A DNA stretch of 64,000 nt, taken from the IMG/VR virus record IMGVR_UViG_3300044645_002359, positions 22,355-86,354 of that record, one strand, 5' to 3'. A program made the position numbers and the translations under genes. This document shows positions 1,755 to 62,113 of the stretch, one piece after another. A model generated the notes under the pieces. That model did no database searches. It was not told the origin of the DNA and was given only the letters and a program-made list of their open reading frames with translations. Source of the stretch: a virus. Each line of letters starts with the position of its first letter. Position 1 is the stretch's first letter.

Positions 1755-1816
1755 GGTAAACCGAACCGATCCGTTCGGTTCTCACCCTTGTTTCTGCAAG
1801 GCAGAAACGCTATGAT
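1755..1816 (+). promoter_or_regulatory. hairpin-promoter cassette copy 3 (GGTAAACCGAACcgatccGTTCGGTT; -35 TTGTTT; spacer CTGCAAGGCAGAAA; -10 TATGAT)
   Basis: Consensus copy; ATG at 1823. Confidence 0.55.
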
Positions 1817-1822
1817 TATTGT

Positions 1823-2065
1823 ATGAAACACTACCGGCTGTCCGTATCGGGTGAAGTGGTTACCAAGATCGTTGGTTTCGACTCACCCGACTCAGAACTT
1901 TACATTATCGCCCACGCTCACAATCTTTTGAAGTCGGGTGATTTTTTCTTCTTGGAGAAGGCAATTCTTGAGGAATGCCGTCCTAAAGATGAATCTGACG
2001 TCACTGTCGCAGAGTTTACTTTTAGCCGAGAAGGTTGGACTGCTTTCTACCCTGCGAGGGTCTAG
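1823..2065 (+). CDS. hypothetical protein (80 aa)
   Basis: Leaderless ATG after the cassette. Confidence 0.45.
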   Translation: MKHYRLSVSGEVVTKIVGFDSPDSELYIIAHAHNLLKSGDFFFLEKAILEECRPKDESDVTVAEFTFSREGWTAFYPARV

Positions 2066-2347
2066 GGTCTAAGGGCAAAGCCCTACCATACGGCTCAAAA
2101 CTGGGTGTAGCTCGGGCAGACGTTGCGGTGGACAAGGGGGCAGTACCCTTTAGCTCCACTTTCCCTTTACGGGGCTAATCTAGTTTCGACACCGTGAAAG
2201 TGTCACTTGAGTGAAAGCCGCTTGCATAAGCACAAAATAGACGCTAACAAAATCGTCAAATTCGAGAGGACTGCCGTAGCCGTTTGAGCTATAGCATTCT
2301 GACTCATTGCGGGGGCTTCGGCCCCCCTTAAACCAATTAGAAACAAA

Positions 2348-2740
2348 ATGTTGCAAATTACCTACGAGTCAGAACTAGACTCTGACTACAGGAAAGAACT
2401 TGATTCTTGCACAAGCGTTCAAGATTTGAAAGCCTTGATTGACAAGTACAAGGCAGTCTCCCCCGACTTAAAGGATGTTGTAATTGAGAGCGATGCCGAT
2501 TACAATGAGTTCAAGAAAGGCTTAGCCGTGGAACGAACTGGGCAATATGCTGGTGACGAATGGTGTGAAAGATTTGGCTCTTTGGCCCTTCCTGTCTACA
2601 TGCTTTACGCTTCACTTTTAGCCGGAGAGTATGGGGCACCTTGGGGAGTTGCTTACTTTAGAATGTGCGCGGAAGGGGCTGTCCCAGGTGTAGACCCTGA
2701 GCTTGCGAAACAAGAAATTTTCTCATTTCTGCCCAGTTAA
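2348..2740 (+). CDS. hypothetical protein (130 aa)
   Basis: ORF. Confidence 0.45.
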   Translation: MLQITYESELDSDYRKELDSCTSVQDLKALIDKYKAVSPDLKDVVIESDADYNEFKKGLAVERTGQYAGDEWCERFGSLALPVYMLYASLLAGEYGAPWGVAYFRMCAEGAVPGVDPELAKQEIFSFLPS

Positions 2741-2745
2741 ACAAA

Positions 2746-3096
2746 ATGGAAATCAACCCTAAATTATTGACCTCTTCCGGAAAGAAGAAAGTTAAGAAAA
2801 TCCTAGCAGAGTACAGTCCCCCAAACTATAACAGTCTAAATTGGAGTGACTTCCAAAGGGGGGAAGATTATTACAAGTTCCAATCTGAGTGGAATACCCA
2901 CAAGGTCCTCAGGGAAATTTTTGATGGGTCTGGAATTGAAGAGAATGATGAATACGAAAGCGGTTTTGAAGACCTTAGTTATAATGAAGGAATAATTTAC
3001 ACGAACATTGCCAACATTATAATCAGTTTAAGAAACCAAATTCAAAACACTGAAGAAACCGCCGATGAAGCTATCAGGCGATTGAATAATATCTGA
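2746..3096 (+). CDS. hypothetical protein (116 aa)
   Basis: ORF. Confidence 0.45.
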   Translation: MEINPKLLTSSGKKKVKKILAEYSPPNYNSLNWSDFQRGEDYYKFQSEWNTHKVLREIFDGSGIEENDEYESGFEDLSYNEGIIYTNIANIIISLRNQIQNTEETADEAIRRLNNI

Positions 3097-3104
3097 TTGG
3101 AAAA

Positions 3105-3338
3105 ATGACGCACTTACTTCTTGAAGGGCCAGACGGACGGTCTTATATTGCTAGGAAAGCAGAGCTTTCAAATGTTCCATGGGCATATGATAGGGAAAGC
3201 TGGTTGGTCACAGAATTTAACCACGGTACTAACCCGCCCACAGATTGGTGGATTGAAGAATCGGTGAACCAATGGGGTAGAAGCCAGACCTATGATAACC
3301 TGGACAAGTTTACCATCTTAGCAGCTCACTCAGACTAA
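3105..3338 (+). CDS. hypothetical protein (EGPDGR.YIA family, paralog A)
   Basis: Shares LEGPDGRSYIA with the next ORF's VEGPDGRHYIA. Confidence 0.45.
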   Translation: MTHLLLEGPDGRSYIARKAELSNVPWAYDRESWLVTEFNHGTNPPTDWWIEESVNQWGRSQTYDNLDKFTILAAHSD

Positions 3339-3359
3339 CCCTTGCACCTTTAAAACAAA

Positions 3360-4285: not shown

Positions 4286-4313
4286 CCCACCGTAAATTCA
4301 ACAACAACAACAA

Positions 4314-4688: not shown

Positions 4689-4698
4689 ATGAGATACA

Positions 4699-10673: not shown

Positions 10674-10738
10674 GGCGGAAAACCGAACGAAAACCTTCGG
10701 TTTTCACCCTTGTTTTCGCTCACCGAAAACGGTATGAT
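10674..10738 (+). promoter_or_regulatory. hairpin-promoter cassette copy 4
   Basis: AAAACCGAAcgaaaaccTTCGGTTTT hairpin; -35 TTGTTT; spacer TCGCTCACCGAAAA; -10 TATGAT. Confidence 0.55.
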
Positions 10739-10766: not shown

Positions 10767-11018
10767 ATGACCATCAGCCAAATAGTTCACGAGCTATCCC
10801 TCGACAAGCTCAAAGAGCTCACTTCAGACTACGAACAGTTCGAGTGCGATGGTTCGATTCCCAACTGTTACCTTCGAAGGATGGCGGAACGGGCTCAACG
10901 AGAGCTGGGCCTGAACTCAGGCTTTCCTGTAATTCTTTGGGTGGAGAAGGTTGCGTTTGAAGCTTACCGTGAACTTTATAAGCGGTTGCAACACTTGCTT
11001 AGCGAAGAGGTCGGTTAA
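10767..11018 (+). CDS. hypothetical protein (83 aa)
   Basis: ORF downstream of the cassette. Confidence 0.4.
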   Translation: MTISQIVHELSLDKLKELTSDYEQFECDGSIPNCYLRRMAERAQRELGLNSGFPVILWVEKVAFEAYRELYKRLQHLLSEEVG

Positions 11019-11085
11019 CCGACCTTTACCTCCATCCTAAACAAGGCTATACTTAATTTAACAAGAAACTACGACGGAGCTGAAA

Positions 11086-12075
11086 ATGATCGCCCTACCC
11101 AACGTCAAGGAAGAAACGGTTATCGAGCCGTTAGTCAAAGAACTGATTCAGGTTACCGTTGAAACAGAAGGCGGTTTGGGTTACGTTCATAGGAAAACTT
11201 TTCAATTCAGTGCAGGAGAGACTCAAGTTCGCCTCAGTCCTTTGCCTACAGGAGTCAGGAAGATTCGAGTTAGGGCGGATATTGAGAGCAGCCAAACTTT
11301 GGTAGAACTTCTTCTGACTTTGGATGCTATTAACAATCTAGAGTACCAAGGTCCTGTCGGATTAACCCTCCCATACCTTCCTTACAGCCGTCAAGACCGC
11401 GCCTGCGCACCTGGCGAGGCTTTTGCCCTTTCTGTTCTTGTAAACTGCCTCGTCCCGTATCTCGGTGCCGACGACACTATCACAACTTGGGATGTTCACA
11501 GCAGTGTGGCACGAACCCTTTTCGATAGTAAATTCCAGGGAGTATTCTATAATGTCTCCGCAGCGAGTCTCTTGCAGAATTTTGAGCTTGAAAAAGATGT
11601 GGTATTCAATCCCTCAACCATTGTCATTGCCCCAGATAAGGGTGCTGTAGACCGGGCCACAGAAGTTCAAAATGTCCTGGGACTAGAACGGACCGTGTAC
11701 GCAACCAAAGTTCGCAATCCGGACGACGGCCAGATCCTAAGAACAGAAGTTCCCGAAGACGTGAATTACCGAGGCAAAAACCTTTTGATTGTAGACGACA
11801 TTTGTGATGGTGGCCGCACTTTCATCGAACTTGCCAAGGTTTTGCGAGAATACGAGCCGTCACGTATTGACCTTTATGTGACACATGGGATCTTCTCAAA
11901 AGGTTTCAAAGTTTTTGAGGGCTTTATTGACAACATCTACGTAGCCAACCTGTTGATGGAACTCATTGAGCACCGCGATGGACGAAAGTCGTTCCCATCA
12001 GGTTCTGACCTCTGTGAAAATGTGGGATGTTATAGAGAATTTCCGAGCAACGTGACTTATCTCCGAAACATTTAA
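11086..12075 (+). CDS. ribose-phosphate pyrophosphokinase (PRPP synthetase)-like; candidate ADPR-PP synthetase (Adps) of an NAD-reconstitution pathway
   Basis: 329 aa; PRPP/PRTase motif NLLIVDDICDGGRTF; Prs-like length; immediately upstream of the NAMPT-like gene. Confidence 0.65.
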   Translation: MIALPNVKEETVIEPLVKELIQVTVETEGGLGYVHRKTFQFSAGETQVRLSPLPTGVRKIRVRADIESSQTLVELLLTLDAINNLEYQGPVGLTLPYLPYSRQDRACAPGEAFALSVLVNCLVPYLGADDTITTWDVHSSVARTLFDSKFQGVFYNVSAASLLQNFELEKDVVFNPSTIVIAPDKGAVDRATEVQNVLGLERTVYATKVRNPDDGQILRTEVPEDVNYRGKNLLIVDDICDGGRTFIELAKVLREYEPSRIDLYVTHGIFSKGFKVFEGFIDNIYVANLLMELIEHRDGRKSFPSGSDLCENVGCYREFPSNVTYLRNI

Positions 12076-12113
12076 CCCTGCTCGACAACCCAAGTCAAAC
12101 CTCTTAACAAACA

Positions 12114-13616
12114 ATGAAACTCTTCGCCCCTAACCTTACAGACTTCTACAAGACGGGTCACTACCGCCAGTACCCTGAAAACACGGAGTTCATCTACTCG
12201 AACATGACCGCACGGTCGGACCGTCTCGCCAAGATGCTCCCCGACTACGACCACAAAGTAGTGGTAGCAGGTATTCTGGGCACAGCAGCTTGGTACCTTC
12301 GCGACCTTTGGAACGATACTTTCTTCAGTCAACCTAAAGACCGAGTACTTGAAAAGTACCGCAGGCGAATGGACTCGGCTCTCGGACCTGGCGCCGTGAG
12401 CACAGCCCACCTGGCCGAACTTCACGACCTCGGTTACCTTCCAATCCGAGTAAAGGCTCTCCCAGAAGGCACCCGTGTCAATCTGCGCGTCCCCTTCCTC
12501 ACGGTGGAGAACACACACCCCGACTTCTATTGGGTGACTAACTACATTGAAACTGCCCTGTCGGCTGAAGTTTGGAAGCATGTCAACAATGCAACCATCG
12601 CCTACGAGTTTCGCCGCCTACTTGACCGATACGCAGATCTAACAGGGACTGACCGGTCTTTTGTTGACTTCCAGGCGCACGACTTTTCCTTCCGAGGAGT
12701 TAGTGGTATTCACGATGCTGCTGCCCACGGGATTGGACACCTGTTCTCCTTCAAGGGTACGGACAACATCCCGGCAATTGACTTCTTGGAAGATTACTAC
12801 AACGTTGAAGGCGAATTTATCGCCGGTGGCGTCCCTGCTACCGAACACAGTGTTATGTGCACCGGGGGCCAAGATACTGAGATTGACACCTACAGGCGTC
12901 TGATTTCTGAAACTTACCCGACTGGTATTGTTAGCATTGTTAGCGACACTTGGGACTACTGGAACGTTCTCACGAACATTGCTGCCCAACTGGAGGAGAC
13001 GATCCTGAATCGCCAACCGGATGCCCTTGGCCTTGCCAAAGTTGTATTCCGCCCTGATAGTGGAGACCCCGAGAGAATCCTTTGCGGCGACCCGGACGCT
13101 GAACCCGGCAGTCCAGCCTTCAAAGGCTCTCTGCAGCTCCTCTGGGACCTCTTCGGAGGCACCGTAAACGAGCAGGGCTTCCGCGTCCTTAACCCTCGCG
13201 TGGGCCTCATCTACGGTGACTCGATCACCCTTCCTAGAGCTCTTTCCATTCTGGAGAACATGCACAGCAACGGATGGGCCAGCGGTAACGTTGTTTTCGG
13301 TGTGGGTTCGTACACTTACCAGTTCCACACTCGCGATACATTCGGCATCGCTTTCAAGACGACTTGGACTCAAATCAACGGTCAACCTGTCGAAGTTATG
13401 AAAGATCCGATTACCGACCGTGGAACTAAGAAGTCGGCCAAAGGGTTGCTTCGTGTTGAAGAAGAGAATGGCGAGTACGTTCTCTACGAGCAACAAAGTC
13501 GAGATGAAGAGAGTCGAGGAGAACTGCGAACCGTATTTATGAATAGCCAGGTCTTCGAAAGACCCGACGAGAGTTTGACGAACATTCGCAGTCGTCTTGT
13601 CTCGCCAAATTCCTAA
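12114..13616 (+). CDS. nicotinamide phosphoribosyltransferase (NAMPT/NadV)-like; candidate Namat
   Basis: 500 aa; the N-terminus NLTDFYKTGHYRQYPENTEFIYSNMTAR matches the NAMPT start (TDSYKVTHYKQYPPNT…); overall NAPRTase-family architecture. Confidence 0.75.
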   Translation: MKLFAPNLTDFYKTGHYRQYPENTEFIYSNMTARSDRLAKMLPDYDHKVVVAGILGTAAWYLRDLWNDTFFSQPKDRVLEKYRRRMDSALGPGAVSTAHLAELHDLGYLPIRVKALPEGTRVNLRVPFLTVENTHPDFYWVTNYIETALSAEVWKHVNNATIAYEFRRLLDRYADLTGTDRSFVDFQAHDFSFRGVSGIHDAAAHGIGHLFSFKGTDNIPAIDFLEDYYNVEGEFIAGGVPATEHSVMCTGGQDTEIDTYRRLISETYPTGIVSIVSDTWDYWNVLTNIAAQLEETILNRQPDALGLAKVVFRPDSGDPERILCGDPDAEPGSPAFKGSLQLLWDLFGGTVNEQGFRVLNPRVGLIYGDSITLPRALSILENMHSNGWASGNVVFGVGSYTYQFHTRDTFGIAFKTTWTQINGQPVEVMKDPITDRGTKKSAKGLLRVEEENGEYVLYEQQSRDEESRGELRTVFMNSQVFERPDESLTNIRSRLVSPNS

Positions 13617-14307: not shown

Positions 14308-14553
14308 CATCAACAGCCCTGTTTATCGGGGCTTTGCTTTTACAAACTTCCCCACTGAAACCTTACTGAAGTTTACAGAGAAAGTGAAAAAATCTAAGTT
14401 TAAGAAACTCATTCAGAAGCCACTAAGATTTCATCACCAGGACATTCACGAAGAGATTGAGGGTTTAACAGACCTTCTGCTTAACGTTTCCAACCGGCTG
14501 ATTCGAGTAGAGTCCTTGCTAGATAATCTAACTTCAAATAGCCCGAAGGGAGG

Positions 14554-14613
14554 GTAACCGAACGAAAGCCTTCGGTTCACACCCTTGTTTCTACGAGGCA
14601 GAAACGCTATACT
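14554..14613 (+). promoter_or_regulatory. hairpin-promoter cassette copy 5
   Basis: GGTAACCGAAcgaaagccTTCGGTT; -35 TTGTTT; spacer CTACGAGGCAGAAA; -10 TATACT; ATG at 14620. Confidence 0.55.
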
Positions 14614-16579: not shown

Positions 16580-16687
16580 TTACCAAAACTAAACGGGCGG
16601 TTAACCGCCATAGCCCCCAGGTGACAGTCAGTGTAGGATGACCTTGGATTTGATCCCCCTTTTTTACAAACCCGTACCCCGGCAGCA

Positions 16688-17299: not shown

Positions 17300-17366
17300 G
17301 GGGCGGTAAACCGCCCTACCCGGCTCGGTTTCCCGGCTTGTTTCTGCCACGCAGACACGGTATCAT
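17300..17366 (+). promoter_or_regulatory. hairpin-promoter cassette copy 6
   Basis: GGGCGGtaaaCCGCCC plus CCGGctcggtttcCCGG; -35 TTGTTT; spacer CTGCCACGCAGACA; -10 TATCAT; ATG at 17373. Confidence 0.55.
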
Positions 17367-24032: not shown

Positions 24033-24079
24033 AGCCTTCGGCTTCCACCCTTGTTTTCGCTGAGCGAAAGCGGTATGAT
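24017..24079 (+). promoter_or_regulatory. hairpin-promoter cassette copy 8
   Basis: GGTAAACCGAActGAAGCCttcGGCTTC; -35 TTGTTT; spacer TCGCTGAGCGAAAG; -10 TATGAT; ATG at 24086. Confidence 0.55.
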
Positions 24080-24085
24080 TAATGT

Positions 24086-24409
24086 ATGAAAAGGAAAGTT
24101 AAAAAGAGAATCCAAAAACGGCTTCAGAAAAAAGTCTTTGATTTCGTACACCCGGTAGATCTGAACAAGGTTGTACCTCAAATTGAGAAAAACAAAAGGG
24201 CTATTCAGGCTCTTAGGGCTTTACACCTTGCTTACGATTCCGATCGACGGAGCGGTAGTGAGACCTACGGGTACTCTAGTTTAGAGAGTATCGAATCTAG
24301 CTTAGAGTACATCTGCGATCGCTGGGGCTGTGCATTCCGCTTAACTTGGCTTCTCGGAGTACCTGAAGCAGTGAGCAACCTGAAACAATTCAACTCATCT
24401 TCAAAATGA
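24086..24409 (+). CDS. hypothetical protein (107 aa)
   Basis: Leaderless ATG. Confidence 0.45.
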   Translation: MKRKVKKRIQKRLQKKVFDFVHPVDLNKVVPQIEKNKRAIQALRALHLAYDSDRRSGSETYGYSSLESIESSLEYICDRWGCAFRLTWLLGVPEAVSNLKQFNSSSK

Positions 24410-26344: not shown

Positions 26345-26426
26345 AGGGGGGACGGTTAACCGACTTTCTGCGGGGCGGAAAGGTTCGGTTCCCCCCCTTG
26401 TTTCTACTGTGCAGAAACGCTATGAT
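26345..26426 (+). promoter_or_regulatory. hairpin-promoter cassette copy 9 (long nested hairpin)
   Basis: GGGGGGAcggttaaccg…ggttcggtTCCCCCC; -35 TTGTTT; spacer CTACTGTGCAGAAA; -10 TATGAT. The conserved ATGAAC at 26433 opens only a 6-codon ORF. Confidence 0.5.
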
Positions 26427-30310: not shown

Positions 30311-30376
30311 GGGCGGTAAACCGACCAAAAACTTTCGGTTCTCCCCCTTGTGCCTGCAGCGCAGAGACGCTATAGT
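30311..30376 (+). promoter_or_regulatory. hairpin-promoter cassette copy 10
   Basis: GGGCGGTAAACCGaccaaaaactttCGGTT; -35 TTGTGC; spacer CTGCAGCGCAGAGA; -10 TATAGT; ATG at 30383. Confidence 0.55.
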
Positions 30377-32455: not shown

Positions 32456-32523
32456 GGGGGACGGCTAACCGAACCGAAAGGGGCGGTTCCCTCCCTTGTT
32501 TCACTGAGAGAAAACGCTATAGT
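32456..32523 (+). promoter_or_regulatory. hairpin-promoter cassette copy 11
   Basis: GGGGGACGGCTAACCGAACCGaaaGGGGCGGTTCCCTCCC; -35 TTGTTT; spacer CACTGAGAGAAAA; -10 TATAGT; ATG at 32530. Confidence 0.55.
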
Positions 32524-34270: not shown

Positions 34271-35764
34271 ATGACAACCTTTTTGAACGCACTCGAAAAC
34301 GAATTCAATACTACGACCACAGCCAACGGCGCAAAAGCCTATAAGTCCACAGGTTCCAAGAACCTGGACCTTTTCGGGAAGATTGCAGCCTGCCGCAACG
34401 ACGTTAGCGAAGCAACTCGCCTATTCAACCTTGCTTATGCTGAAGACCCTGAGACCGCAACCAGAATCCTGTTCTGGGCACGTGACATTCGCGGTGGCCA
34501 GGGTGAGCGTAAGATCTTCCGAGAAGTTTTCAAGGAGCTGGTTCGCAATGATGCTACAATCGGCGCGAAACTCATTAGTTTGATCCCGCAGTATGGACGC
34601 TGGGATGATGTGGTAGCCCTTGAAGGCACCCTAGTTTGGAATGTTGCACTCGAGGCAATCAAGGCACAGCTGAACGCTGACTTGAACACCGAAGTTGGAA
34701 ACTCCGTGTCATTGCTTGCGAAATGGCTCCCTTCCATTAACGCCTCTAGCAAGGAGTCTAAGAGGATTGGCCGCAAGATTGCCGAGGCAATGGGTTGGAA
34801 TGAGCGTCAATATCGCAAGGCTTTGACTGCTCTTAGGACACAAATCAAAATTGTCGAACAGGCAATGTGTGCCCGTGAGTGGGATGCCATTGATTATAGC
34901 AAGTTGCCTTCTCGTGCAGGCTTCATGTATCGGAAAGCTTTCGCAAATCGTGATGGCGACCGTTACCAGTCCTACCTGGATGCAGTTAAAAAAGGTGAAG
35001 CAAAGATCAATGCCGGTACTTTGTATCCGTATGACATCGTTGAGAAGTGTCTCTACAACCAAGAATCCAATGATACTCTAGAAGTAATGTGGAAAGCCCT
35101 GCCGAACTTCATGGAGGGCAAGGAATTGAATGGGCTTGTTGTTGCCGATGTTAGCCGTTCTATGTCAGGCCGTCCAATGGCAGTATCCATCTCTCTGGCG
35201 ATGTATATCGCAGAGCGTAATACCGGCATCTGGAAGGACAAGTTCCTAACATTCTCAGGGAATCCTTCTCTACAGACTGTGACTGGCAGTAGCCTTTCAA
35301 ACAAGGTTCGCAACCTTAGCCGAGCAGATTGGGGCGGTAACACTGATATTCAGAAGACGTTTGACCTTATTCTGGATACTGCAGTTCGGAACAACATTCC
35401 AGAGTCAGACATGCCCCGCAAACTGATTATTGTCTCAGACATGCAGTTTGATAACTGTGTTATCATGGGAGGTAATTACTCCGGTCGTATGAGTTATGGC
35501 GGAGCCCGAGTCACCAACTACGAAGCAATCCGCATCAAGTACGCTCAAGCTGGCTACAGCTTGCCCGAAGTTATCTTCTGGAATGTCGATTCCTCAGATA
35601 ACGTCCCGATGAAGGCACATGATTCCGGTACCGCTCTCGTTAGCGGTTGCTCTCCGTCAATCCTGACCGCAGTTCTTACCAGAAACGCAATCACCCCATT
35701 GTCCCTAATGAGAGATGCTGTTTATACTGAAAGGTATGACGCTGTGGGTGCGGTCTTTAACTGA
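34271..35764 (+). CDS. DUF2828 family protein with a C-terminal von Willebrand A domain with a metal-ion-dependent adhesion site (vWA/MIDAS) (Ro60/TROVE-like domain order)
   Basis: N-terminus LNALENEFNTTTTANGAKAYKSTGSKNLDLFGKIAACR…LFWARDIRGGQGERKIFR fits the DUF2828 signature; C-terminal VADVSRSMSG is a MIDAS DxSxS motif. Confidence 0.6.
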   Translation: MTTFLNALENEFNTTTTANGAKAYKSTGSKNLDLFGKIAACRNDVSEATRLFNLAYAEDPETATRILFWARDIRGGQGERKIFREVFKELVRNDATIGAKLISLIPQYGRWDDVVALEGTLVWNVALEAIKAQLNADLNTEVGNSVSLLAKWLPSINASSKESKRIGRKIAEAMGWNERQYRKALTALRTQIKIVEQAMCAREWDAIDYSKLPSRAGFMYRKAFANRDGDRYQSYLDAVKKGEAKINAGTLYPYDIVEKCLYNQESNDTLEVMWKALPNFMEGKELNGLVVADVSRSMSGRPMAVSISLAMYIAERNTGIWKDKFLTFSGNPSLQTVTGSSLSNKVRNLSRADWGGNTDIQKTFDLILDTAVRNNIPESDMPRKLIIVSDMQFDNCVIMGGNYSGRMSYGGARVTNYEAIRIKYAQAGYSLPEVIFWNVDSSDNVPMKAHDSGTALVSGCSPSILTAVLTRNAITPLSLMRDAVYTERYDAVGAVFN

Positions 35765-36048: not shown

Positions 36049-36166
36049 TGGGGAATGGTGCAATGGCAGCACACGTAATTAACGGTTACCTTGGATAAGG
36101 TACAGACAGCAATTACAAAAATTCCATTCCACGGACGTGACGGAGGTTCGATTCCTTCTTCCCCAT
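36049..36166 (+). ncRNA. tRNA-like RNA with a non-canonical insert of about 85 nt (acceptor TGGGGAA/TTCCCCA; D arm GTGC…GCAC; T arm GGAGGttcgattCCTTC)
   Basis: Canonical 7-bp acceptor, D and T arms, but no standard anticodon stem; the insert carries a TACCTTggatAAGGTA hairpin and a CAGACAGCAATTA motif. Confidence 0.4.
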
Positions 36167-36363: not shown

Positions 36364-36429
36364 GGCGGTAAACCGCCCCATGTGGTTCGGTTTGCACCCT
36401 TGTTTTCGCACCGCGAAAACGCTATGATT
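36364..36429 (+). promoter_or_regulatory. hairpin-promoter cassette copy 12
   Basis: GGCGGTAAACCGCC…GGTTCGGTTT; -35 TTGTTT; spacer TCGCACCGCGAAAA; -10 TATGAT; ATG at 36435. Confidence 0.55.
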
Positions 36430-37255: not shown

Positions 37256-37373
37256 GGGACCGTAGCTCAACTGGTAGAGCGCTAAATAAAAGTTATCTTG
37301 TACAAGATACGTCAGCAATTAAAAAATACCTCGTTTAAAGGAGTGGTTGCAGGTTCGAGTCCTGCCGGTCCCA
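37256..37373 (+). ncRNA. tRNA-like RNA with a 46-nt insert (acceptor GGGACCG/CGGTCCC; D arm GCTCAACTGGTAGAGC; T arm GCAGGttcgagtCCTGC)
   Basis: Textbook tRNA 5' half and T arm; between them is a palindromic hairpin ATCTTgtacAAGAT plus ACGTCAGCAATTA; no well-paired anticodon stem. Confidence 0.45.
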
Positions 37374-38133: not shown

Positions 38134-38200
38134 GGTTCGGTTACCCGAACCGGGTGGTTCGGTTCCCCTCCTTGTTTTTGCAGCGCAAAAACGCTATAGT
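38134..38200 (+). promoter_or_regulatory. hairpin-promoter cassette copy 13
   Basis: GGTTCGGTTACCCGAACCgggtGGTTCGGTTCC; -35 TTGTTT; spacer TTGCAGCGCAAAAA; -10 TATAGT; ATG at 38207. Confidence 0.55.
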
Positions 38201-39579: not shown

Positions 39580-39645
39580 GTCGGTAAGCCGCCCGTAAAC
39601 GTTCGGTTCTCCCCCCTTGTTTTCGCACCGCTAAAACGCTAAAAT
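39580..39645 (+). promoter_or_regulatory. hairpin-promoter cassette copy 14 (-10 TAAAAT, leader of about 27 nt)
   Basis: CGGTAAGCCGCCCGTAAACGTTCGGTT; -35 TTGTTT; spacer TCGCACCGCTAAAA. Confidence 0.45.
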
Positions 39646-43745: not shown

Positions 43746-43797
43746 TTCACTTGTCAGGGTTGGCCTAAACGTGAACAACCCTGACGTTTCAACTCAT

Positions 43798-43887
43798 GGG
43801 CGTGTGGTGTACGGTAGCACAGGGTCCCTTATGAAGACCACTCCGGCAGATTACCGGCTAGTTAGGGTTCGACTCCCTACGCGCCTA
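43798..43887 (+). tRNA. type-II-like tRNA (long variable arm CCGGcagattaCCGG; anticodon loop CTTATGA, identity ambiguous)
   Basis: Acceptor GGGCGTG/CGCGCCT; T arm TAGGGttcgactCCCTA; weak anticodon stem. Confidence 0.4.
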
Positions 43888-43971
43888 TTTGATTTTGGGT
43901 AATAATGACCATGCTTTGTAACCAAAGCATTAACAACCTGCATTAGCAATCTACGCTAACAACGACAAAAA

Positions 43972-45861: not shown

Positions 45862-45926
45862 AGACGGTTAACCGAACGGAAACTGACGGTTTCCTCCCTT
45901 GTTTTGCTCCGGCGAAACCGCTATAG
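45862..45926 (+). promoter_or_regulatory. hairpin-promoter cassette copy 15
   Basis: ACGGTTAACCGaacggaaactgACGGTTTCC; -35 TTGTTT; spacer TGCTCCGGCGAAAC; -10 TATAGT. The conserved ATGAAC at 45935 opens a 14-codon ORF before the real gene. Confidence 0.5.
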
Positions 45927-48573: not shown

Positions 48574-48638
48574 GGGCGGTAAACCGAACGGAAACTTTCG
48601 GCTTCCCACCTTGGCTCTGGCTCGCAAACCAGGTATAG
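48574..48638 (+). promoter_or_regulatory. hairpin-promoter cassette copy 16
   Basis: GGGCGGTAAACCGAACGGaaactttCGGCTTCCCACC; -35 TTGGCT; -10 TATAGT; ATG at 48646. Confidence 0.5.
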
Positions 48639-51014: not shown

Positions 51015-51077
51015 CGGATAACCGAACCGCTGAAGGCGGTTCACCCCCTTGTCTCTGAAGAGATGGCACGCTATGAT
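51015..51077 (+). promoter_or_regulatory. hairpin-promoter cassette copy 17
   Basis: AACCGCtgaaGGCGGTT; -35 TTGTCT; -10 TATGAT; ATG at 51084. Confidence 0.5.
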
Positions 51078-52633: not shown

Positions 52634-52886
52634 GTCAAACGTTCAGGCTGCTTCGGCAGCCCGGAAGTAGGTGACAAAGGAACGCATTCGTTCAGTCTGT
52701 TTACAGGCCGGGATTGTCTCCAAAGGAACGCGCAAAGCAACCCTAGGAGAACACAATGATTAACACTTCAGACAATTCAACCAAAGGTCTCAACCCTCTG
52801 TTTCTTATCAAAAAAAGCCTTATCAAAGAAAGCAAACTCAAAGAAGCACAGCTTGAGATGGCCAAGAAACCCTAAATTCTATAAAA

Positions 52887-53554: not shown

Positions 53555-53772
53555 AGAAGGATCAAAAAGAAATAAGTTTAAAACCTCCGATTAAAATTGG
53601 CCTAAAAGAGGCTCAAAACCGCAGGGATTTGATGGCGACTATGGCAGAGATGAGCCAGCACTTACCTAACGTTTCTTCGGAAAAGCAAGAGCTAGTGGCT
53701 CAGTTCATGGTAGAACAACTCCGTGGGGCGGCTAACCGAACCGAACCGTTCGGTTCTAACCCTGACTCCTAA
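53551..53772 (+). CDS. hypothetical protein (73 aa)
   Basis: ATGA overlap. Confidence 0.35.
   Translation: MKKDQKEISLKPPIKIGLKEAQNRRDLMATMAEMSQHLPNVSSEKQELVAQFMVEQLRGAANRTEPFGSNPDS
53728..53758 (+). terminator. cassette-type hairpin without a promoter half (CCGAACcgaaccGTTCGG)
   Basis: Hairpin only; the next ATG is at 53772. Confidence 0.4.
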
Positions 53773-57237: not shown

Positions 57238-57303
57238 GGGGGGTTAACCGAACCGAAACGGTCGGTCTCCGCCCTTGTTTTCGCTCCGAGAAAACGCTAT
57301 AGT
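57238..57303 (+). promoter_or_regulatory. hairpin-promoter cassette copy 19
   Basis: GGGGGGTTAACCGAACCGaaacGGTCGGTCTCCGCCC; -35 TTGTTT; spacer TCGCTCCGAGAAAA; -10 TATAGT; ATG at 57310. Confidence 0.55.
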
Positions 57304-58371: not shown

Positions 58372-59859
58372 ATGACTATGGCAATAGAAAGTACAAAGCA
58401 AGCCGCTGCGGCAGTCTGCGATAAAAATACCAAATGCGACAATAGCTGCTCCGTTGGTGAAACCGTTGTCTGTGACTTACGCTCTCGCTCTGCCCCACGC
58501 AGAATTGACCTCGATACACTTTACAAGTGCGACCCGAAAGATTACATCGGTTACTTCGCTGACGATTCCTCCTACGACAATCTTATTCAAGAAGACTGCG
58601 ACGTTTACGTTGCCGGTGTCAAAGTTGTCGCTTTTCGTAAGTCCCTGTTCCCAAAACTGAAGGAAGGTTCCAAGGGCGACCCAAAGACTTGGGAATACTT
58701 CCGCTGGGCAGCCCGCGATCTGTATTCTGACCAGCGCGGTCTGGTTGCCGGTCGGGAACTTACAACCGATCTCGAAATCAGAGTAACTAATGGTATTCTA
58801 AACTTCTTCAAAAAAGCCATTGCTGGGCAAGTCACAGAAGTTGAAGAGGCTCTTAAAATTGTTGCTCTTTCTCCAGATCATGGTAAGCTTACAGTAAGAA
58901 TCACCGAAGTCAAGAAAGACTATCCGGAAATTGCCAAAGCTCTTGAGCCCATCGAAGCCGAACTTCGTAAGAAAACGACGAGCGAAGAAAGAAAAGTAGA
59001 GCTGAAGAAAGCAAAGGGAGAAGAACTTGCGAAGTGGTTCCCGACCTGGTTGACACGAACTTGGGCTAAGGCTGAAAACAAAGTAGAGGCAGCTAAGCTA
59101 GGGGACGACAGGTATATCAGCAAGCAGCTGCGTTCAAACAAGTGCTATTCTAACGTTCTTGGTGCCTTCGATAGAGGGGCAAGAAATCCTTACGGTCGCT
59201 TAACCGCTACTACTCTTAAAAACTACGACGGTTTCGTGAGTCATACAGACATCTACCAAACCGCTTGTGCCGCTCTGAAAGAAACCCTAAACACACAAGA
59301 AAACCCCCGTTGGGATCGTCTTCACGACCGCTTCGGTAACGTGAAAGATCCACATTATAACCTTTTCGGTACGGTATTTACCGCCCTCACCTTAAACTGG
59401 AATTTCCGCTGTGCTATGCACTATGACGGGAACAATTGCGAAGGCGGTATTGCCGTTCTTACCGCAATGACTCAAGGCGAGTACGAAGGTCATTACCTTG
59501 TATTCCCAGAAATCCGGTGCGCCTTTGATCTTCGTGACGGGGACTTTATTGCAGGTGACAACCAGGGTTTGATTCATGGCAACACCGCTATGATTCCAAA
59601 GACTCCTGATGCGGAAAGAGTATCCTTCGTTTTCTATTCTCGCGAGCGTATGACCTTGCTTGATGACATGGAGTGCGAGGACTGCCGCCGCGATTTCATG
59701 AAATACGCAGCTGAGAACTACACTCAGTACGGTAAAGGTCACAAAACCTGGAATGGTGTGTGGCAGGGAATGTGGAAGTCTTCGGAATGGATGGACTTCA
59801 AAGAACTTAACGGTGCGGAGCGTTGCTCAAACACCAACTACTGGGGAACTGAAAATTAA
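58372..59859 (+). CDS. two-domain protein: unknown N-domain plus 2OG-Fe(II) dioxygenase-like double-stranded beta-helix (DSBH) domain (HxD…H…RxS); fused version of 60571 plus 61062
   Basis: MHYDGNN…LIHGN…RVSFVFYSRE facial triad with a 2OG-binding Arg-x-Ser; paralogous over its full length to the two following split ORFs. Confidence 0.5.
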   Translation: MTMAIESTKQAAAAVCDKNTKCDNSCSVGETVVCDLRSRSAPRRIDLDTLYKCDPKDYIGYFADDSSYDNLIQEDCDVYVAGVKVVAFRKSLFPKLKEGSKGDPKTWEYFRWAARDLYSDQRGLVAGRELTTDLEIRVTNGILNFFKKAIAGQVTEVEEALKIVALSPDHGKLTVRITEVKKDYPEIAKALEPIEAELRKKTTSEERKVELKKAKGEELAKWFPTWLTRTWAKAENKVEAAKLGDDRYISKQLRSNKCYSNVLGAFDRGARNPYGRLTATTLKNYDGFVSHTDIYQTACAALKETLNTQENPRWDRLHDRFGNVKDPHYNLFGTVFTALTLNWNFRCAMHYDGNNCEGGIAVLTAMTQGEYEGHYLVFPEIRCAFDLRDGDFIAGDNQGLIHGNTAMIPKTPDAERVSFVFYSRERMTLLDDMECEDCRRDFMKYAAENYTQYGKGHKTWNGVWQGMWKSSEWMDFKELNGAERCSNTNYWGTEN

Positions 59860-59883
59860 CCCTTAGGTCGGTTACCGGAGCGG

Positions 59884-59922
59884 AGTAGATTCAAATTTAC
59901 TCTGCTTTTATCCAGCTATATT
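59884..59922 (+). terminator. rho-independent terminator (GGAGTAGAttcaaattTACTCTGC plus TTTTAT)
   Basis: Stem-loop followed by a T-tract. Confidence 0.5.
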
Positions 59923-59947
59923 AGAACTGAAGTTTACCAAGAGAGAA

Positions 59948-60172
59948 ATGACAAACTTTGACGACCTCTTTGAAGCAGTAGAATCTTCTTCATACGACTT
60001 GTCCAGAAACCTGGACACCATACGTTATGAAATTGAAGGTCTCACTAGGGAATATGAGGAACTACTTAATCTGTTGCAAGTTTCTGACCATCAGTCAGCG
60101 GTAGAAGCAATTATTTCTCTTAAGTCTAAACGAGATCTTACTGCACCTCGGAGAGGATCGGAAACGCTTTAA
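59948..60172 (+). CDS. hypothetical protein (74 aa)
   Basis: ORF. Confidence 0.4.
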   Translation: MTNFDDLFEAVESSSYDLSRNLDTIRYEIEGLTREYEELLNLLQVSDHQSAVEAIISLKSKRDLTAPRRGSETL

Positions 60173-60262
60173 CGAAGTCCATATCAAAAGCTAATAACAC
60201 TTATAGAGACCTTGTGGATTTGAGCTAACTCTCTTTAATTTCACCACTATACGACAACAAAC

Positions 60263-60574
60263 ATGACGACTGAACCGCAAGCCGAAAGTGAAGAACAATC
60301 CTCTCAGGAAACTTTACAAACAACTGTTACTATCAATCTACCCCCAGATTTTGCAGAGGCTTTCAACTCTCTGGCAGAACGCGAAGGACTATCTCAAGAT
60401 GCGCTGGTTATGCGCTCTCTTGGCCTTTACTCCGTAGCATCGCAAGCTGAGAAGGGGGGTTACGCTTTGTCTTTCACCCGGATTGAAGGAACCAACGACC
60501 TGACTGCCAAGGAAGCTATTCGCATCGAAGACGAGCCAGAATCTAACTTGTTTATTCCAGGCAAGAGGCAATGA
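60263..60574 (+). CDS. hypothetical protein (103 aa)
   Basis: ORF. Confidence 0.4.
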   Translation: MTTEPQAESEEQSSQETLQTTVTINLPPDFAEAFNSLAEREGLSQDALVMRSLGLYSVASQAEKGGYALSFTRIEGTNDLTAKEAIRIEDEPESNLFIPGKRQ

Positions 60575-61065
60575 TTCGAGTAGCAATAGCGAAAGAATTG
60601 CAGTCTAGAGCTGAACCATTGCGGATCGATAGGGGAACCCTTGAAAACTGCCCTCGCAGTGAATACATTGGACAATTCCCCAAGACAACAGATTATGACA
60701 CTGTCATAGACAAAGACTGTGACGTTTACGTCTCAGGTGTGAAAGTCTTGTCCTTCCGAAAAGCTCTCTTTCCAATTCTTTCCGAGGGTTCTTCCAAACA
60801 GAAAGAAACTTGGGACTTTTTCCGAGCAGCTTCAAAAGAAGTTTATGGCACCCAAAGAGGTGTCGTTGCGGGCACAGAGTTTACAACTCGTCCCGAGTCA
60901 CGCTTAACTAAAGGCCAGGTTGCTTTCTTCGCCGGTGCTTCAGTGGGTTTGATTACAACGCTTCCTCAAGCGCGAGAGGCTCTGGAAAGTTCCAACGAAC
61001 TCACTAGCAAGACTCTCAAGATCAAGTATATAAAGAAAGACTACCCAGAACTTGCGGAAAAATGA
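60571..61065 (+). CDS. N-domain paralog (split copy) of the 58372 protein
   Basis: RIDRGTLENCPRSEYIGQFP…DCDVYVSGVKVLSFRKALFP parallels RIDLDTLYKCDPKDYIGYFA…DCDVYVAGVKVVAFRKSLFP. Confidence 0.5.
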   Translation: MIRVAIAKELQSRAEPLRIDRGTLENCPRSEYIGQFPKTTDYDTVIDKDCDVYVSGVKVLSFRKALFPILSEGSSKQKETWDFFRAASKEVYGTQRGVVAGTEFTTRPESRLTKGQVAFFAGASVGLITTLPQAREALESSNELTSKTLKIKYIKKDYPELAEK

Positions 61066-62057
61066 AGCCCTTGGAGGCAGAAATTCGCACACTGAGCCCC
61101 GAAGACCCGAAACTAGAAAGTCTGAGAAACCAGAGAAGGGAACTACTTTGGTGTTGGTTTGAACCTTGGTTACTGGAAGTTTGGTTGCCCTCTGAAAACA
61201 AAGTAGAAGAAGTCAAAAAAGTTTTAAACACTTACATTAGCTCTCAGTTAAATTTCAACCATTGCTACAGTAACGTCCTGGGGGCAATTGACCGTGGGGC
61301 AAGATTCCCCTATGGTCGTTTGAGCGGAACCACTCAGAGATACTATGAGCAGTTCTCTAAATACAGAGACATTTATTACGCGGCCTGCGAAGGTTTCAGG
61401 TACAATTTTCCGGAGACCTGGAGCAAAGTTAAAGAAGTAATTTCGAAGGCTAAAGACCCTAACTACAACTTGTTCGGCACTGCCTTTACGAGCGTAACTC
61501 TAAACTTCAATTTTAAGACTGCCTACCACGTTGACAAGAACAACTTGAAAGGGGGGCTGGCTGTCTTGACTGCGTTCACAAAGGGAGACTATGAGGGCCA
61601 CTACTTAGTGTTCCCCGAAGTTAAGCTAGCTTTCAACTTGAGAGACGGGGACTTTATCGTAGGAGACACTCAAGTCCTACTTCACGGGAACAGCCCCATG
61701 ACAAAACTCACTGAGGATGCTGAGCGGGTTTCTCTGGTTTTCTACTCTCGAGAGAATATGACCCGATTGGACGATCTTGATTGTGAAGAATGCCGAAAAC
61801 AATTCATGAAGTTTTCACTTCAGTCCCTGAAGGAACGGGGCAAAGATCACAAAGACTGGAGGGGCGTGTGGCAAGGAATGTGGACTTCTCAGGAGTGGTT
61901 AGACTTTCGAAAAGAAAGAAACTTGGAACACTGTTCAAACTCCAACTGGCAGCTTTCTTCGCCTTACGAGAATGAAGTTACGAAAGAGATGAAGCTGTTT
62001 AAGGACGATCCAGGTGAGGGATGGAAACTCGTACAAGTATTTACACAAGGTCGGTAA
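61062..62057 (+). CDS. 2OG-Fe(II) dioxygenase-like (HxD…H…RxS) paralog, ATGA-coupled to 60571
   Basis: AYHVDKNN…LLHGN…[10 protein letters not shown]; about 55% identical to the C-half of 58372. Confidence 0.5.
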
Positions 62058-62113
62058 CCGCCCGGAAGCCTTCGGCTTCCTCCCTTGTTTCTGATCCACA
62101 TAAACGCTATGAT
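62049..62113 (+). promoter_or_regulatory. hairpin-promoter cassette copy 20
   Basis: GGTCGGTAACCGCCCGGAAGCCttcGGCTTCC; -35 TTGTTT; spacer CTGATCCACATAAA; -10 TATGAT; ATG at 62120. Confidence 0.55.

What the first reader, a model, noticed from the sequence alone, without database searches (positions are those of the whole stretch)
1780..62108. The promoter spacer is a palindrome that covaries between copies
The 14-nt segment between -35 and -10 is an inverted repeat in nearly every copy, for example TTTCTGCagcGCAGAAA, TTTTCGCtcacCGAAAAC, TTTCTACgagGCAGAAA, TTTCACTgagAGAAAAC, TTTTTGCagcGCAAAAA and TTTTCGCaccGCGAAAAC. The two arms change in a compensatory way. That pattern indicates selection for a secondary structure, either a hairpin in RNA or single-stranded DNA or a dyad operator, rather than for one particular sequence. 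This is unusual inside a sigma70 spacer. It may be a second hairpin of a tandem terminator, an RNase III site, or the binding site of a phage-encoded dimeric regulator.
Basis: seen in the sequence. Interest (0 to 1): 0.55.

Follow-up and report, generated by a model that had tools for sequence, protein, structure and literature searches.

The report
Hairpin palindrome inside repeated phage promoters
At least 18 copies of a compact terminator-plus-promoter cassette in this uncultured phage carry, between the promoter's two boxes, a short palindrome whose two arms change together; it is real, and closely resembles the "promoter-early stem-loop" (PeSL) cassettes already described in T4-type phages.

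Summary
The window has at least 18 same-strand copies of one intergenic cassette. Each has an upstream GC-rich hairpin (T1), then CCTTGTTT (-35 = TTGTTT), a 17-nt spacer, TAnnnT (-10), and usually an ATG exactly at the predicted transcript start.

A 19-nt palindrome, G-TTTyyGC-nnn-GCrrAAA-C, runs from the G of the -35 box to position -15. Its arms covary in the window and in 96 diverged cassettes from related viral contigs:
- 77.6% of cells are paired, against 68.5±0.9 in shuffles.
- 89 cells are changed on both sides, against 38±11.
- Swapping arms between copies weakens the fold (z = -9).
- Many distinct perfect stems exist, and the loop is 3-5 nt.

This argues for base pairing rather than a fixed protein-binding sequence. 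Only 11 of 18 window copies have at least 7 of 8 pairs. A stem-loop in a sigma70 spacer is also not unprecedented: PeSL cassettes of T4-type phages RB49/phi1 place theirs there, and one tested stem-loop terminates transcription.

My preferred reading is a PeSL-like cassette whose palindrome is a back-up attenuator hairpin. Whether it acts in RNA or DNA is unresolved: unlike T1, it shows no RNA-type G·U bias. I rate it a new variant of a known kind, of moderate interest.

The parts
494..512 (+). Spacer palindrome, cassette 490: GTTTCTGC agc GCAGAAAC, 8 of 8 pairs. The -10 is TTTAAT and GTG stands in place of ATG.
   Evidence: RNA -10.6 kcal/mol, z -3.3. This cassette (window 456-555) is absent from relative L025.
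1133..1151 (+). Cassette 1129: GTCTTTGC aac TCAAAACT. Degenerate, 4 of 8 pairs; the -35 is TTGTCT.
   Evidence: 0 kcal/mol. The ortholog in L025 is better paired (GCAAAACC).
1790..1808 (+). Cassette 1786: GTTTCTGC aag GCAGAAAC, 8 of 8 pairs. ATG at 1823.
   Evidence: -10.2 kcal/mol
10712..10730 (+). Cassette 10708: GTTTTCGC tca CCGAAAAC, 7 of 8 pairs. ATA in place of ATG.
   Evidence: -6.7 kcal/mol
14587..14605 (+). Cassette 14583: GTTTCTAC gag GCAGAAAC, 7 of 8 pairs (A·C mismatch). ATG at 14620.
   Evidence: At this cassette, relative L042 has an extra ORF flanked by a duplicated T1 hairpin.
17340..17358 (+). Cassette 17336: GTTTCTGC cac GCAGACAC, 7 of 8 pairs. ATG at 17373.
   Evidence: -6.9 kcal/mol
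24053..24071 (+). Cassette 24049: GTTTTCGC tga GCGAAAGC, 7 Watson-Crick pairs plus one T·G. ATG at 24086.
   Evidence: -9.7 kcal/mol
26365..26381 (+). Extra copy of the same palindrome (TTTCTGC ggg GCGGAAA) outside any promoter. It forms the apical stem of the upstream hairpin T1 of cassette 26396.
   Evidence: The same arrangement is seen in L009 and L056.
26400..26418 (+). Cassette 26396: GTTTCTAC tgt GCAGAAAC, 7 of 8 pairs.
30350..30368 (+). Cassette 30346: GTGCCTGC agc GCAGAGAC, 6 of 8 pairs. The -35 is TTGTGC; ATG at 30383.
32498..32516 (+). Cassette 32494: GTTTCACT gag AGAAAACG. Poorly paired, and its spacing is one base shorter.
   Evidence: -0.8 kcal/mol
36402..36420 (+). Cassette 36398: GTTTTCGC acc GCGAAAAC, 8 of 8 pairs. 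ATG at 36435.
   Evidence: Relative L056 has 2.8 kb extra at its T1 hairpin.
38174..38192 (+). Cassette 38170: GTTTTTGC agc GCAAAAAC, 8 of 8 pairs. ATG at 38207.
   Evidence: -7.5 kcal/mol
39619..39637 (+). Cassette 39615: GTTTTCGC acc GCTAAAAC, 7 of 8 pairs. The -10 is TAAAAT, followed by a roughly 30-nt leader rather than an ATG at +1.
   Evidence: Homology with L016 breaks at 39641.
45901..45919 (+). Cassette 45897: GUUUUGC ucc GGCGAAAC pairs in a register shifted by one base, with a 4-nt loop.
   Evidence: -8.2 kcal/mol
48613..48631 (+). Cassette 48609: the -35 is TTGGCT and there is no clear palindrome. Its orthologs in L016 and L062 also lack one. ATG at 48646.
51051..51069 (+). Cassette 51047: GTCTCTGA aga GATGGCAC. 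Only a short shifted stem, and the orthologs are not palindromic either.
57277..57295 (+). Cassette 57273: GTTTTCGC tcc GAGAAAAC, 7 of 8 pairs. Ortholog L020 pairs 8 of 8 and its loop is gga, the reverse complement of tcc.
62087..62105 (+). Cassette 62083: GTTTCTGA tcc ACATAAAC, 6 of 8 pairs. ATG at 62120.
   Evidence: -1.2 kcal/mol
1734..1825 (+). One whole cassette as a model. The upstream ORF stops at 1759. Hairpin T1 (AACCGAAC..GTTCGGTT plus a C-rich 3' side) runs into TTGTTT, which is both the -35 box and the T-rich tract after T1. Then follow the palindrome, the -10 TATGAT (1811-1816) and an ATG at 1823, the 7th nt after the -10.
53726..53765 (+). T1-type hairpin with no promoter and no palindrome: CCCTGA replaces CCCTTG and there is no -10. 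Other stand-alone T1-type hairpins lie at 11008-11025 and 16596-16609.

Best explanation
The palindrome is the stem-loop part of a PeSL-type (promoter-early stem-loop) composite terminator/promoter cassette. The cassette is repeated between co-oriented small genes of an uncultured jumbo phage.

Each cassette packs several elements into about 90 nt:
- a GC-rich terminator hairpin (T1);
- a sigma70-type promoter whose -35 box, TTGTTT, doubles as T1's U-rich tract;
- a 17-nt spacer and a -10 box;
- a start codon at the predicted +1, giving a leaderless mRNA.

The last four bases of the -35 box plus four more bases pair with the promoter-distal half of the spacer, forming an 8-10-bp hairpin with a 3-5-nt loop. 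Base pairing is what is conserved (shown). The sequence of the stem is free to change on both sides, and this includes the variable half of the -35 box.

Most likely (inferred by analogy with RB49/phi1 PeSLs), the hairpin forms in RNA that has read through T1 from the upstream gene. Followed by the T-rich -10/discriminator region, it would act as a second attenuator/terminator just before the next gene's +1. That would keep each leaderless gene an insulated unit. The repeated cassettes also serve as recombination points for gene shuffling.
For: Anatomy:
- The cassettes share -35, 17-nt spacing, -10 and strand.
- Upstream ORFs stop 21-70 nt before the -35 in 16 of 18 copies (175 and 189 nt in the other two), and ATG is the 7th nt after the -10 in 13 of 18.
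- The proteins starting there have N-terminal catalytic motifs at sensible distances.
- T1 folds ahead of TTGTTT: mean -16.5 kcal/mol, with 5.6 T in the next 10 nt.

Pairing constraint:
- Window shuffle test, 0 of 10,000.
- In 96 diverged cassettes, 77.6% of cells are paired against 68.5±0.9. Cells changed on both sides number 89 against 38±11. The covariation score is 0.324 against 0.199±0.014 (0 of 500 shuffles), and slid registers give only 41-53% paired.
- Native MFE is -5.69 against -3.94±0.19 for arm-swapped chimeras, z -9.2.
- Distinct perfect stems: CTGC/GCAG, TCGC/GCGA, TTGC/GCAA, TCTC/GAGA, TTTC/GAAA, GTCTTTGC/GCAAAGAC, GCTTTTTC/GAAAAAGC, GGTTTTGC/GCAAAACC. There is also a class with a shifted centre and 4-nt loop, CTTTCC-GNNA-GGAAAG.

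Precedent:
- PeSL stem-loops lie most often between -35 and -10, and one tested stem-loop terminates about as well as rrnB T1 (PMC2839356).
- The concept was extended to T4/PST and KVP40/nt-1 (PMC4122927).

Shuffling:
- Indels against relatives sit at cassettes.
- 8 of 83 homology breakpoints fall at cassettes, against 3.2 expected (p 0.015).
Against: - The palindrome lacks RNA signatures. Among non-Watson-Crick cells, G·T-type number 22 and A·C-type 26. Single-mismatch stems show 3 G·T-type, 4 A·C-type and 11 transversion-type. Loops are unconstrained triloops.
- T1 in the same cassettes does show RNA signatures. CTTCGG (a UUCG tetraloop) occurs in 13 of 96, against 1.0 expected, and G·T-type cells number 29 against 9 A·C-type. 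The latter count is rough.
- The tract after the palindrome is a poor U-tract, with 4.5 T in 12 nt.
- Stand-alone T1-type hairpins have no palindrome, and the palindrome never occurs without a cassette.
- About a third of cassettes lack the palindrome, stably so across orthologs.
- T1 and palindrome strengths do not compensate for each other (rho +0.22).
- The phage is not shown to be T4-type.
- No transcript data exist.
Confidence: 0.4

Rival explanations
1. The hairpin acts at the DNA level. The palindrome would form a hairpin or cruciform in single-stranded or supercoiled phage DNA. That structure could switch the promoter off, since the -35 box is inside the stem. Alternatively it could be a preferred site for strand exchange or cleavage that drives cassette recombination.
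For: - The mismatch spectrum is symmetric: G·T-type roughly equals A·C-type, and transversion types are in random proportion. This is what a both-strand palindrome predicts and differs from T1.
- Loops are 3 nt and unconstrained.
- The palindrome is tied to the promoter, not to stand-alone T1 hairpins.
- DNA-parameter folds give -5 to -7.7 kcal/mol, z -2 to -4.4.
- There is one possible loop flip, tcc against gga, between orthologs.
- From memory, not checked here: promoters repressed by cruciform extrusion (Horwitz and Loeb 1988) and the hairpin promoters of phage N4.
Against: - From general knowledge, an 8-bp stem with arbitrary loops is short for cruciform extrusion in duplex DNA.
- No structure-specific protein was identified in the window.
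- The mismatch test has low power (48 informative cells) and the copies are related by descent.
- The geometry differs from N4 promoters: the hairpin centre lies near -24.
Confidence: 0.25
2. The arms evolve in concert without any function. Once a palindrome existed in the ancestral cassette, intrastrand template switching during replication (quasipalindrome correction) would copy changes from one arm to the other. This mimics compensatory evolution.
For: - The mismatch spectrum is symmetric and random.
- A third of cassettes have lost the palindrome and stay promoter-like.
- Perfect short-loop palindromes are also in excess outside cassettes: 30, against 12.4±3.6 expected for the whole window.
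- The mechanism is well known in T4 and E. coli (from memory).
Against: - Enrichment inside cassettes is about 45-fold: 15 perfect palindromes in roughly 1.7 kb, against about 0.3 expected.
- The position relative to -35 and -10 is kept across 96 diverged cassettes, while the loops are randomised.
- The 3' arm tracks changes in the -35 box itself, for example TTGCCT, TTGGTT and TTGCTT.
Confidence: 0.15
3. The palindrome is a dyad operator. A dimeric phage or host regulator would bind TTTCTGC-N3-GCAGAAA over the -35 box and shut off (or activate) all the early promoters together.
For: - One stem type, CTGC/GCAG, dominates, and the outer TTT/AAA and inner GC/GC are the most conserved positions.
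- A palindrome overlapping the -35 box is the classical geometry for a phage repressor operator.
- The same sequence recurs three times outside promoters.
Against: - The half-sites are not independent. At pair 5 there are 36 C-G and 22 T-A cells but only 5 mixed.
- Every stem position except the outermost shows changes on both sides.
- The dyad centre shifts by half a base and the loop varies from 3 to 5 nt.
- No candidate regulator gene was identified. The window's ORFs were only partly annotated.
Confidence: 0.12
4. The covariation is an artefact of descent: a few palindrome 'alleles' were copied many times.
For: Cassettes are paralogs, and shuffle tests ignore relatedness (caveat).
Against: - At least nine different perfect stems occur, with unrelated loops and flanks.
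- Slid-register controls, which keep relatedness, give much lower pairing and covariation.
- The sequences were clustered at under 80% context identity before testing.
Confidence: 0.04

Closest known systems
PeSLs (promoter-early stem-loops) of T4-type phages RB49/phi1, T4/PST and KVP40/nt-1 (Arbiol et al. 2010, PMC2839356; Comeau et al. 2014, PMC4122927)
   Same: - A cassette of about 100 bp, repeated between co-oriented small genes.
- It combines a sigma70-like early promoter (17-nt spacer) with a stem-loop.
[quoted passage not shown]
- The stem sequence varies between copies.
- Cassettes sit at indels and replacements between close relatives.
   Different: - Two hairpins per cassette here: T1 upstream plus the spacer palindrome.
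- The -35 box also serves as the T-rich tract after T1.
- No AT-rich upstream region and no Shine-Dalgarno sequence: the ATG is at +1 (leaderless).
- The stems are T-rich/A-rich, not polyG/polyC.
- The host phage is an uncultured lineage not shown to be T4-type.
- No functional test exists.
- Dense PeSLs were not found in cyanophage S-PM2 (PMC4503421).
Tandem or back-up intrinsic terminators
   Same: Two hairpins in series downstream of a gene. The first has a GC-rich base and a U-rich tract.
   Different: The second hairpin is followed by only a weak U-rich tract (the -10 box), shows no G·U tolerance, and is absent from stand-alone T1 hairpins in the same window.
Hairpin promoters of coliphage N4 virion RNA polymerase, and promoters repressed by cruciform extrusion (from memory; papers not read here)
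   Same: A short inverted repeat with a 3-nt loop inside a phage early promoter, where structure rather than sequence matters.
   Different: The elements here look like host sigma70-type promoters (TTG, 17 nt, TAnnnT, G at -14). The hairpin centre is near -24, the loops are unconstrained, and no phage RNA polymerase is seen in the window.
Phage repressor operators overlapping -35 (lambda or 434 type; mycobacteriophage stoperators as repeated sites)
   Same: A repeated site of about 17-19 bp with dyad symmetry over the -35 box of many promoters.
   Different: The arms covary instead of each keeping a consensus, and the centre and loop length vary.

Membership tests
PeSL (promoter-early stem-loop) cassette | A sigma70-like promoter with -35 and -10 boxes about 17 nt apart, repeated many times per genome | tested here: met
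   At least 18 copies in 64 kb with CTTG(-35)-N17-TAnnnT. The alignment of 96 cassettes has CTTG and T30, A31, T35 invariant, in part because the collecting pattern required them. Promoter activity itself was not tested.
PeSL (promoter-early stem-loop) cassette | A sequence able to form a stable stem-loop within or next to the promoter (between -35 and -10, or overlapping a box) | tested here: met
   An 8-10-bp stem from the G of the -35 box to -15. RNA energies reach -10.6 kcal/mol and DNA energies -7.7. Covariation is supported. About a third of cassettes have lost it.
PeSL (promoter-early stem-loop) cassette | [quoted passage not shown] | tested here: met
   The upstream frame stops 21-70 nt before the -35 in 16 of 18 copies, and an ATG lies 33 nt after the G of the -35 in 13 of 18. 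The genes are accessory: NAD salvage, RNA ligases, Tet/JBP and many with no hit.
PeSL (promoter-early stem-loop) cassette | Association with insertions, deletions and replacements between closely related phages | tested here: met
   Examples lie at 456-555, 14538-14577, 36366-36377 and 39641. 8 of 83 breakpoints fall at cassettes, against 3.2 expected, p 0.015 (a crude test).
PeSL (promoter-early stem-loop) cassette | The stem-loop terminates or attenuates upstream transcription | not testable with these tools
   Shown only for one RB49 stem-loop (PMC2839356). Here the sequence signals are equivocal.
PeSL (promoter-early stem-loop) cassette | AT-rich region upstream of -35 and a Shine-Dalgarno sequence before the start codon | tested here: not met
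   The upstream region is the GC-rich T1 hairpin, and the ATG follows the -10 by 6 nt with no room for a Shine-Dalgarno sequence.
PeSL (promoter-early stem-loop) cassette | The host genome is a T4-type myovirus | tested here: inconclusive
   Two proteins hit Kyanoviridae (T4-like cyanophages) best, at 58-63% identity. Others hit unrelated phages. No T4 core gene lies in the window, and there is no nucleotide relative among isolates.
Intrinsic terminator (for the spacer palindrome taken alone) | A stable RNA hairpin immediately followed by a U-rich tract | tested here: inconclusive
   The hairpin is present, but the tail has only 4.5 T in 12 nt. Only copy 490 passes the simple terminator scan.
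Dyad operator of a dimeric regulator | Two half-sites that each keep a consensus at fixed spacing | tested here: not met
   The half-sites covary, and the centre and loop length vary.

The most novel reading that the evidence does not exclude
The spacer palindrome may not be an RNA element at all. It could be a DNA-level hairpin built into every early promoter of this phage lineage. It could act as a structural switch that removes the -35 box from duplex form, shutting off early promoters together. Or it could be the site where cassettes recombine, making each leaderless gene a mobile, self-expressed module in a way loosely comparable to structure-recognised integron attC sites.
Probability: 0.2. 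Interest if true: 0.7.

Novelty: new variant of a known kind. Interest (0 to 1): 0.4.

Why it matters
It extends the PeSL idea outside the enterobacterial and vibrio T4-type phages where it was described. In that idea, small composite terminator/promoter cassettes insulate accessory genes and let them be shuffled. The new carrier is an uncultured jumbo-phage lineage, probably of cyanobacteria, seen in dozens of viral metagenome contigs.

It also supplies a comparative test of the stem-loop: across 96 diverged cassettes it is conserved as a pairing.

The cassette is unusually economical. One TTGTTT serves as U-tract, as -35 box and as hairpin arm, and the genes appear to be leaderless. I found no mention of leaderless genes in the cyanophage papers I could search.

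The contrast between an RNA-marked upstream hairpin and an unmarked, symmetric spacer palindrome gives a concrete, testable question about whether PeSL stem-loops work in RNA or in DNA.

Tried and rejected
- Nucleotide searches against 50,697 phage records found nothing. The closest isolates by protein, Synechococcus phages B3 and S-CREM1, carry no cassette in the 41-kb stretches examined.
- One viral-contig scan was wasted on a miscounted spacer, 22 N instead of 20.
- A scan of GTDB genomes for the consensus palindrome gave four chance matches with no cassette context, so there is no host clue.
- Rfam has no family for the cassette.
- The simple promoter/terminator scan misses most cassettes because TTGTTT scores poorly against TTGACA.
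- I tried to use T1 as a clean positive control for G·U bias. It has at least two architectures, so that count is only rough.
- I looked for compensation between T1 and palindrome strength and found none.
- Literature searches for leaderless cyanophage genes found only software citations.
- RNase III site rejected by inference: the stem has only 8-10 pairs.
- N4-type hairpin promoter rejected as a membership claim, because the promoter is sigma70-like and the geometry differs.

Full report
**1. What is there**

The window is phage-like, with nearly all genes on the + strand. Its accessory genes include NAMPT, PRPP synthase, two RNA ligases, two Tet/JBP oxygenases and an ADP-ribosylglycohydrolase. 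It also carries tRNAs, a permuted tmRNA and a glutamine riboswitch. It has no nucleotide relative among 50,697 deposited phage genomes. Two of its proteins hit T4-like cyanophages best: Synechococcus phage B3 at 58% and S-CREM1 at 63% (both Kyanoviridae). Other proteins hit unrelated phages best.

An intergenic cassette of about 90 nt is scattered through the window in at least 18 copies, all on the + strand. It reads: a GC-rich hairpin region built on CGGTWAACCG...GTTCGGTT plus a C-run ("T1"), then CCTTGTTT, 17 nt, TAnnnT, 6 nt, ATG. The -35 (TTGTTT), the 17-nt spacer, the -10 and a conserved G at -14 make a sigma70-type promoter.

The upstream reading frame stops 21-70 nt before the -35 in 16 of 18 copies. 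In 13 of 18 the ATG is exactly the 7th base after the -10, which is the expected +1. The proteins that start there have catalytic motifs at normal distances from the N-terminus: GDxH, a P-loop and DxE. These genes therefore look leaderless.

**2. The observation**

The palindrome is a 19-nt element, G-TTTyyGC-nnn-GCrrAAA-C. It starts at the G of the -35 TTG and ends at -15, so it overlaps the -35 box rather than lying strictly between the boxes.
- In 16 copies, 102 of 128 stem positions are Watson-Crick, against 86.8±3.0 when the 3' arms are dealt out among copies (0 of 10,000). For the four inner, variable pairs the figures are 48 of 64 against 33.5±3.0.
- Four copies pair 8 of 8, seven pair 7 of 8, two pair 6 of 8, one pairs in a shifted register and four are poor.
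- Nine of 18 fold at -6.7 kcal/mol or lower as RNA. The eight copies also folded with DNA parameters give -3.2 to -7.7 kcal/mol, five of them at or below -5.

"Nearly every copy" is thus an overstatement, but the signal is far beyond chance.

**3. Relatives**

Pattern scans of IMG/VR found the same cassette in dozens of viral contigs, some of 134-279 kb. The scan fixed only the flank upstream of the -35, the CCTTG and the -10, leaving the palindrome free. I collected 189 distinct matches and kept those with the upstream motif. Clustering at under 80% identity over a 104-nt context gave 96 cassettes.

On their ungapped alignment (A1):
- The 8-pair helix has 77.6% of cells paired, against 68.5±0.9 in shuffles.
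- 89 cells are changed on both sides, against 38.3±11.1.
- The covariation score is 0.324 against 0.199±0.014 (0 of 500 for each measure).
- Sliding the partner by 1-3 columns, which keeps relatedness, gives 41-53% paired and 0.13-0.21.
- Joining the 5' half of one cassette to the 3' half of another raises the mean fold energy from -5.69 to -3.94±0.19 kcal/mol (z -9.2).

There are at least nine different perfect stems. Some have the variable half of the -35 box changed (TTGTCT, TTGCTT, TTGGTT, TTGCCT) with the distal spacer changed to match (AGAC, AAGC, AACC, GGAAAG). One class has its centre shifted by half a base with a 4-nt GNNA loop, and another is shifted the other way. This pattern is what base pairing predicts. 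It is not what a dimeric protein reading two fixed half-sites predicts.

About a third of the cassettes have no usable hairpin. In two window cassettes (48609, 51047) the orthologs lack it too. The palindrome is therefore not needed for a cassette to persist.

**4. Surroundings**

T1 folds into a long hairpin whose base is a G-run/C-run. Its 3' side runs straight into TTGTTTyy. The mean is -16.5 kcal/mol, with 5.6 T in the next 10 nt. The -35 box therefore doubles as the U-rich tract of a terminator, and it is also the 5' arm of the palindrome.

T1 carries marks of an RNA element. CTTCGG, a C(UUCG)G tetraloop, occurs in 13 of 96 cassettes against 1.0 expected. In a rough count, G·T-type cells number 29 against 9 A·C-type, and one lineage has runs of U·G.

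The palindrome does not carry such marks:
- G·T-type 22 against A·C-type 26.
- Among 18 single-mismatch stems, 3 are G·T-type, 4 A·C-type and 11 transversion-type, the random proportion.
- Loops are unconstrained triloops.
- The tract after it is only moderately T-rich, 4.5 of 12.

T1-type hairpins occur alone three times in the window, without a palindrome. The palindrome never occurs apart from a cassette. However, three times it forms the apical stem of T1, away from any -35 or -10: window 26365-26381, L009 and L056.

**5. What is known**

Arbiol et al. 2010 described PeSLs in the T4-type phages RB49 and phi1. These are repeated intergenic cassettes of a strong sigma70-like early promoter plus a stem-loop. 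[quoted passage not shown] One tested stem-loop lowered downstream lacZ expression about as much as rrnB T1. Recombination between PeSLs produces indels and mini-circles, with one crossover mapped within the loop (PMC2839356). Comeau et al. 2014 extended the concept to T4/PST and KVP40/nt-1 (PMC4122927). A search for dense PeSLs in cyanophage S-PM2 was negative (PMC4503421), and I found no later report in other groups.

The present cassettes meet the structural definition. They also show the shuffling signature:
- Relative L042 has an extra ORF of about 165 aa, flanked by a duplicated T1, at cassette 14583.
- L056 has 2.8 kb extra at the T1 of cassette 36398.
- Cassette 490 is itself an indel against L025, and homology with L016 breaks at cassette 39615.
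- Overall, 8 of 83 breakpoints lie at cassettes against 3.2 expected (p 0.015; a crude test).

They differ from PeSLs in four ways. They have two hairpins. They have no AT-rich upstream region. They have no Shine-Dalgarno sequence, being leaderless. And they sit in a lineage not shown to be T4-type.

**6. Mechanism**

Shown:
- The repeated cassette and its promoter-like geometry.
- The pairing constraint on the palindrome.
- The intergenic position.
- The association with indels.

Inferred:
- Transcription starts at the ATG.
- T1 terminates at TTGTTT.
- The palindrome folds in read-through RNA and, with the T-rich -10 region, stops or slows polymerases that escaped T1.

I give the third inference 0.4, mainly on the PeSL precedent and because every gene is co-oriented, so the palindrome is necessarily transcribed by any read-through.

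The missing G·U bias and the tie to the promoter rather than to terminators keep a DNA-level role alive (0.25). That role could be promoter occlusion by extrusion or a recombination site. Concerted evolution of the arms by template switching without function (0.15) is weakened by the 45-fold enrichment in cassettes and the fixed position. It could still contribute to keeping the arms alike. A plain dyad operator (0.12) fits the dominant consensus but not the covariation or the shifting centre. An artefact of descent is unlikely (0.04).

**7. Verdict**

The claim of rarity is not: this is a PeSL-type stem-loop, here in a new, compact, leaderless, two-hairpin variant from an uncultured phage lineage. 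Interest is moderate (0.4). The open and testable point is whether the stem-loop works in RNA or in DNA.

Noticed in passing
window, 13 of the 18 cassettes (for example ATG at 1823, 14620, 17373, 30383, 36435, 48646, 57310, 62120): The start codon is exactly the 7th base after the -10 hexamer and there is no Shine-Dalgarno sequence, so these genes look leaderless. N-terminal catalytic motifs of the encoded proteins fit these starts. I found no report of leaderless genes in cyanophages in the searchable literature.
   Followed up: partly
window 36049-36166 and 37256-37373 (+), downstream of ORF 34271-35764: Two 118-nt tRNA-like genes have normal acceptor, D and T arms but 58 nt in place of the anticodon arm (Rfam tRNA 41.5 and 50.1 bits; ARAGORN does not call them). 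They follow a DUF2828/DUF7788 gene. In Synechococcus phage B3, the homologous gene is likewise followed by a 110-nt 'tRNA-Pseudo'. This recalls Ro60-type proteins with tRNA-like Y RNAs (from memory; not tested).
   Followed up: partly
window 2069-2378 (+): A permuted tmRNA gene (Rfam tmRNA_permuted, 73 bits; ARAGORN tag peptide ANKIVKFERTAVAV) is carried by the phage, just downstream of cassette 1786 and its 80-aa ORF.
   Followed up: no
window 52638-52688 (+): A glutamine riboswitch aptamer (glnA type, 41.3 bits against a gathering score of 35) lies in the phage. Together with the cyanophage protein hits, this points to a cyanobacterial host.
   Followed up: no
window 26365-26381; L009 around 5802; L056 5395-5412: The promoter palindrome (TTTyyGC-n3/4-GCrrAAA) also occurs away from any -35 or -10, as the apical stem of the upstream T1 hairpin or between two T1-type repeats. 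Its origin is unexplained: copying between cassette parts, or a module recognised in its own right.
   Followed up: partly
window, whole (for example 29378, 34350, 35449, 36470, 39520): Perfect palindromes with a 7-bp stem and 3-5-nt loop are in excess outside the cassettes too: 30, against 12.4±3.6 expected for the whole window under a first-order Markov model. A few of these are tRNA arms or terminators.
   Followed up: no
window 58372-59859 and 61062-62057 (+): Two Tet/JBP-family 2OG-Fe(II) oxygenase genes suggest that the phage modifies its DNA bases. NAMPT and PRPP synthase (11086-13616) suggest phage-encoded NAD salvage.
   Followed up: no
window 57285-57287 against L020 (orthologous cassette): The 3-nt loop is tcc in the window and gga in the ortholog, its reverse complement. 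This is what flipping of a hairpin loop would give. It is a single case and could be chance.
   Followed up: partly
window 43797-43888 (+): ARAGORN calls a 92-nt tRNA-Ile (anticodon tat) that did not reach Rfam's gathering score. It lies in a small tRNA cluster with tRNA-Arg (tct), and tRNA-Ser (cga) follows about 1.6 kb downstream.
   Followed up: no
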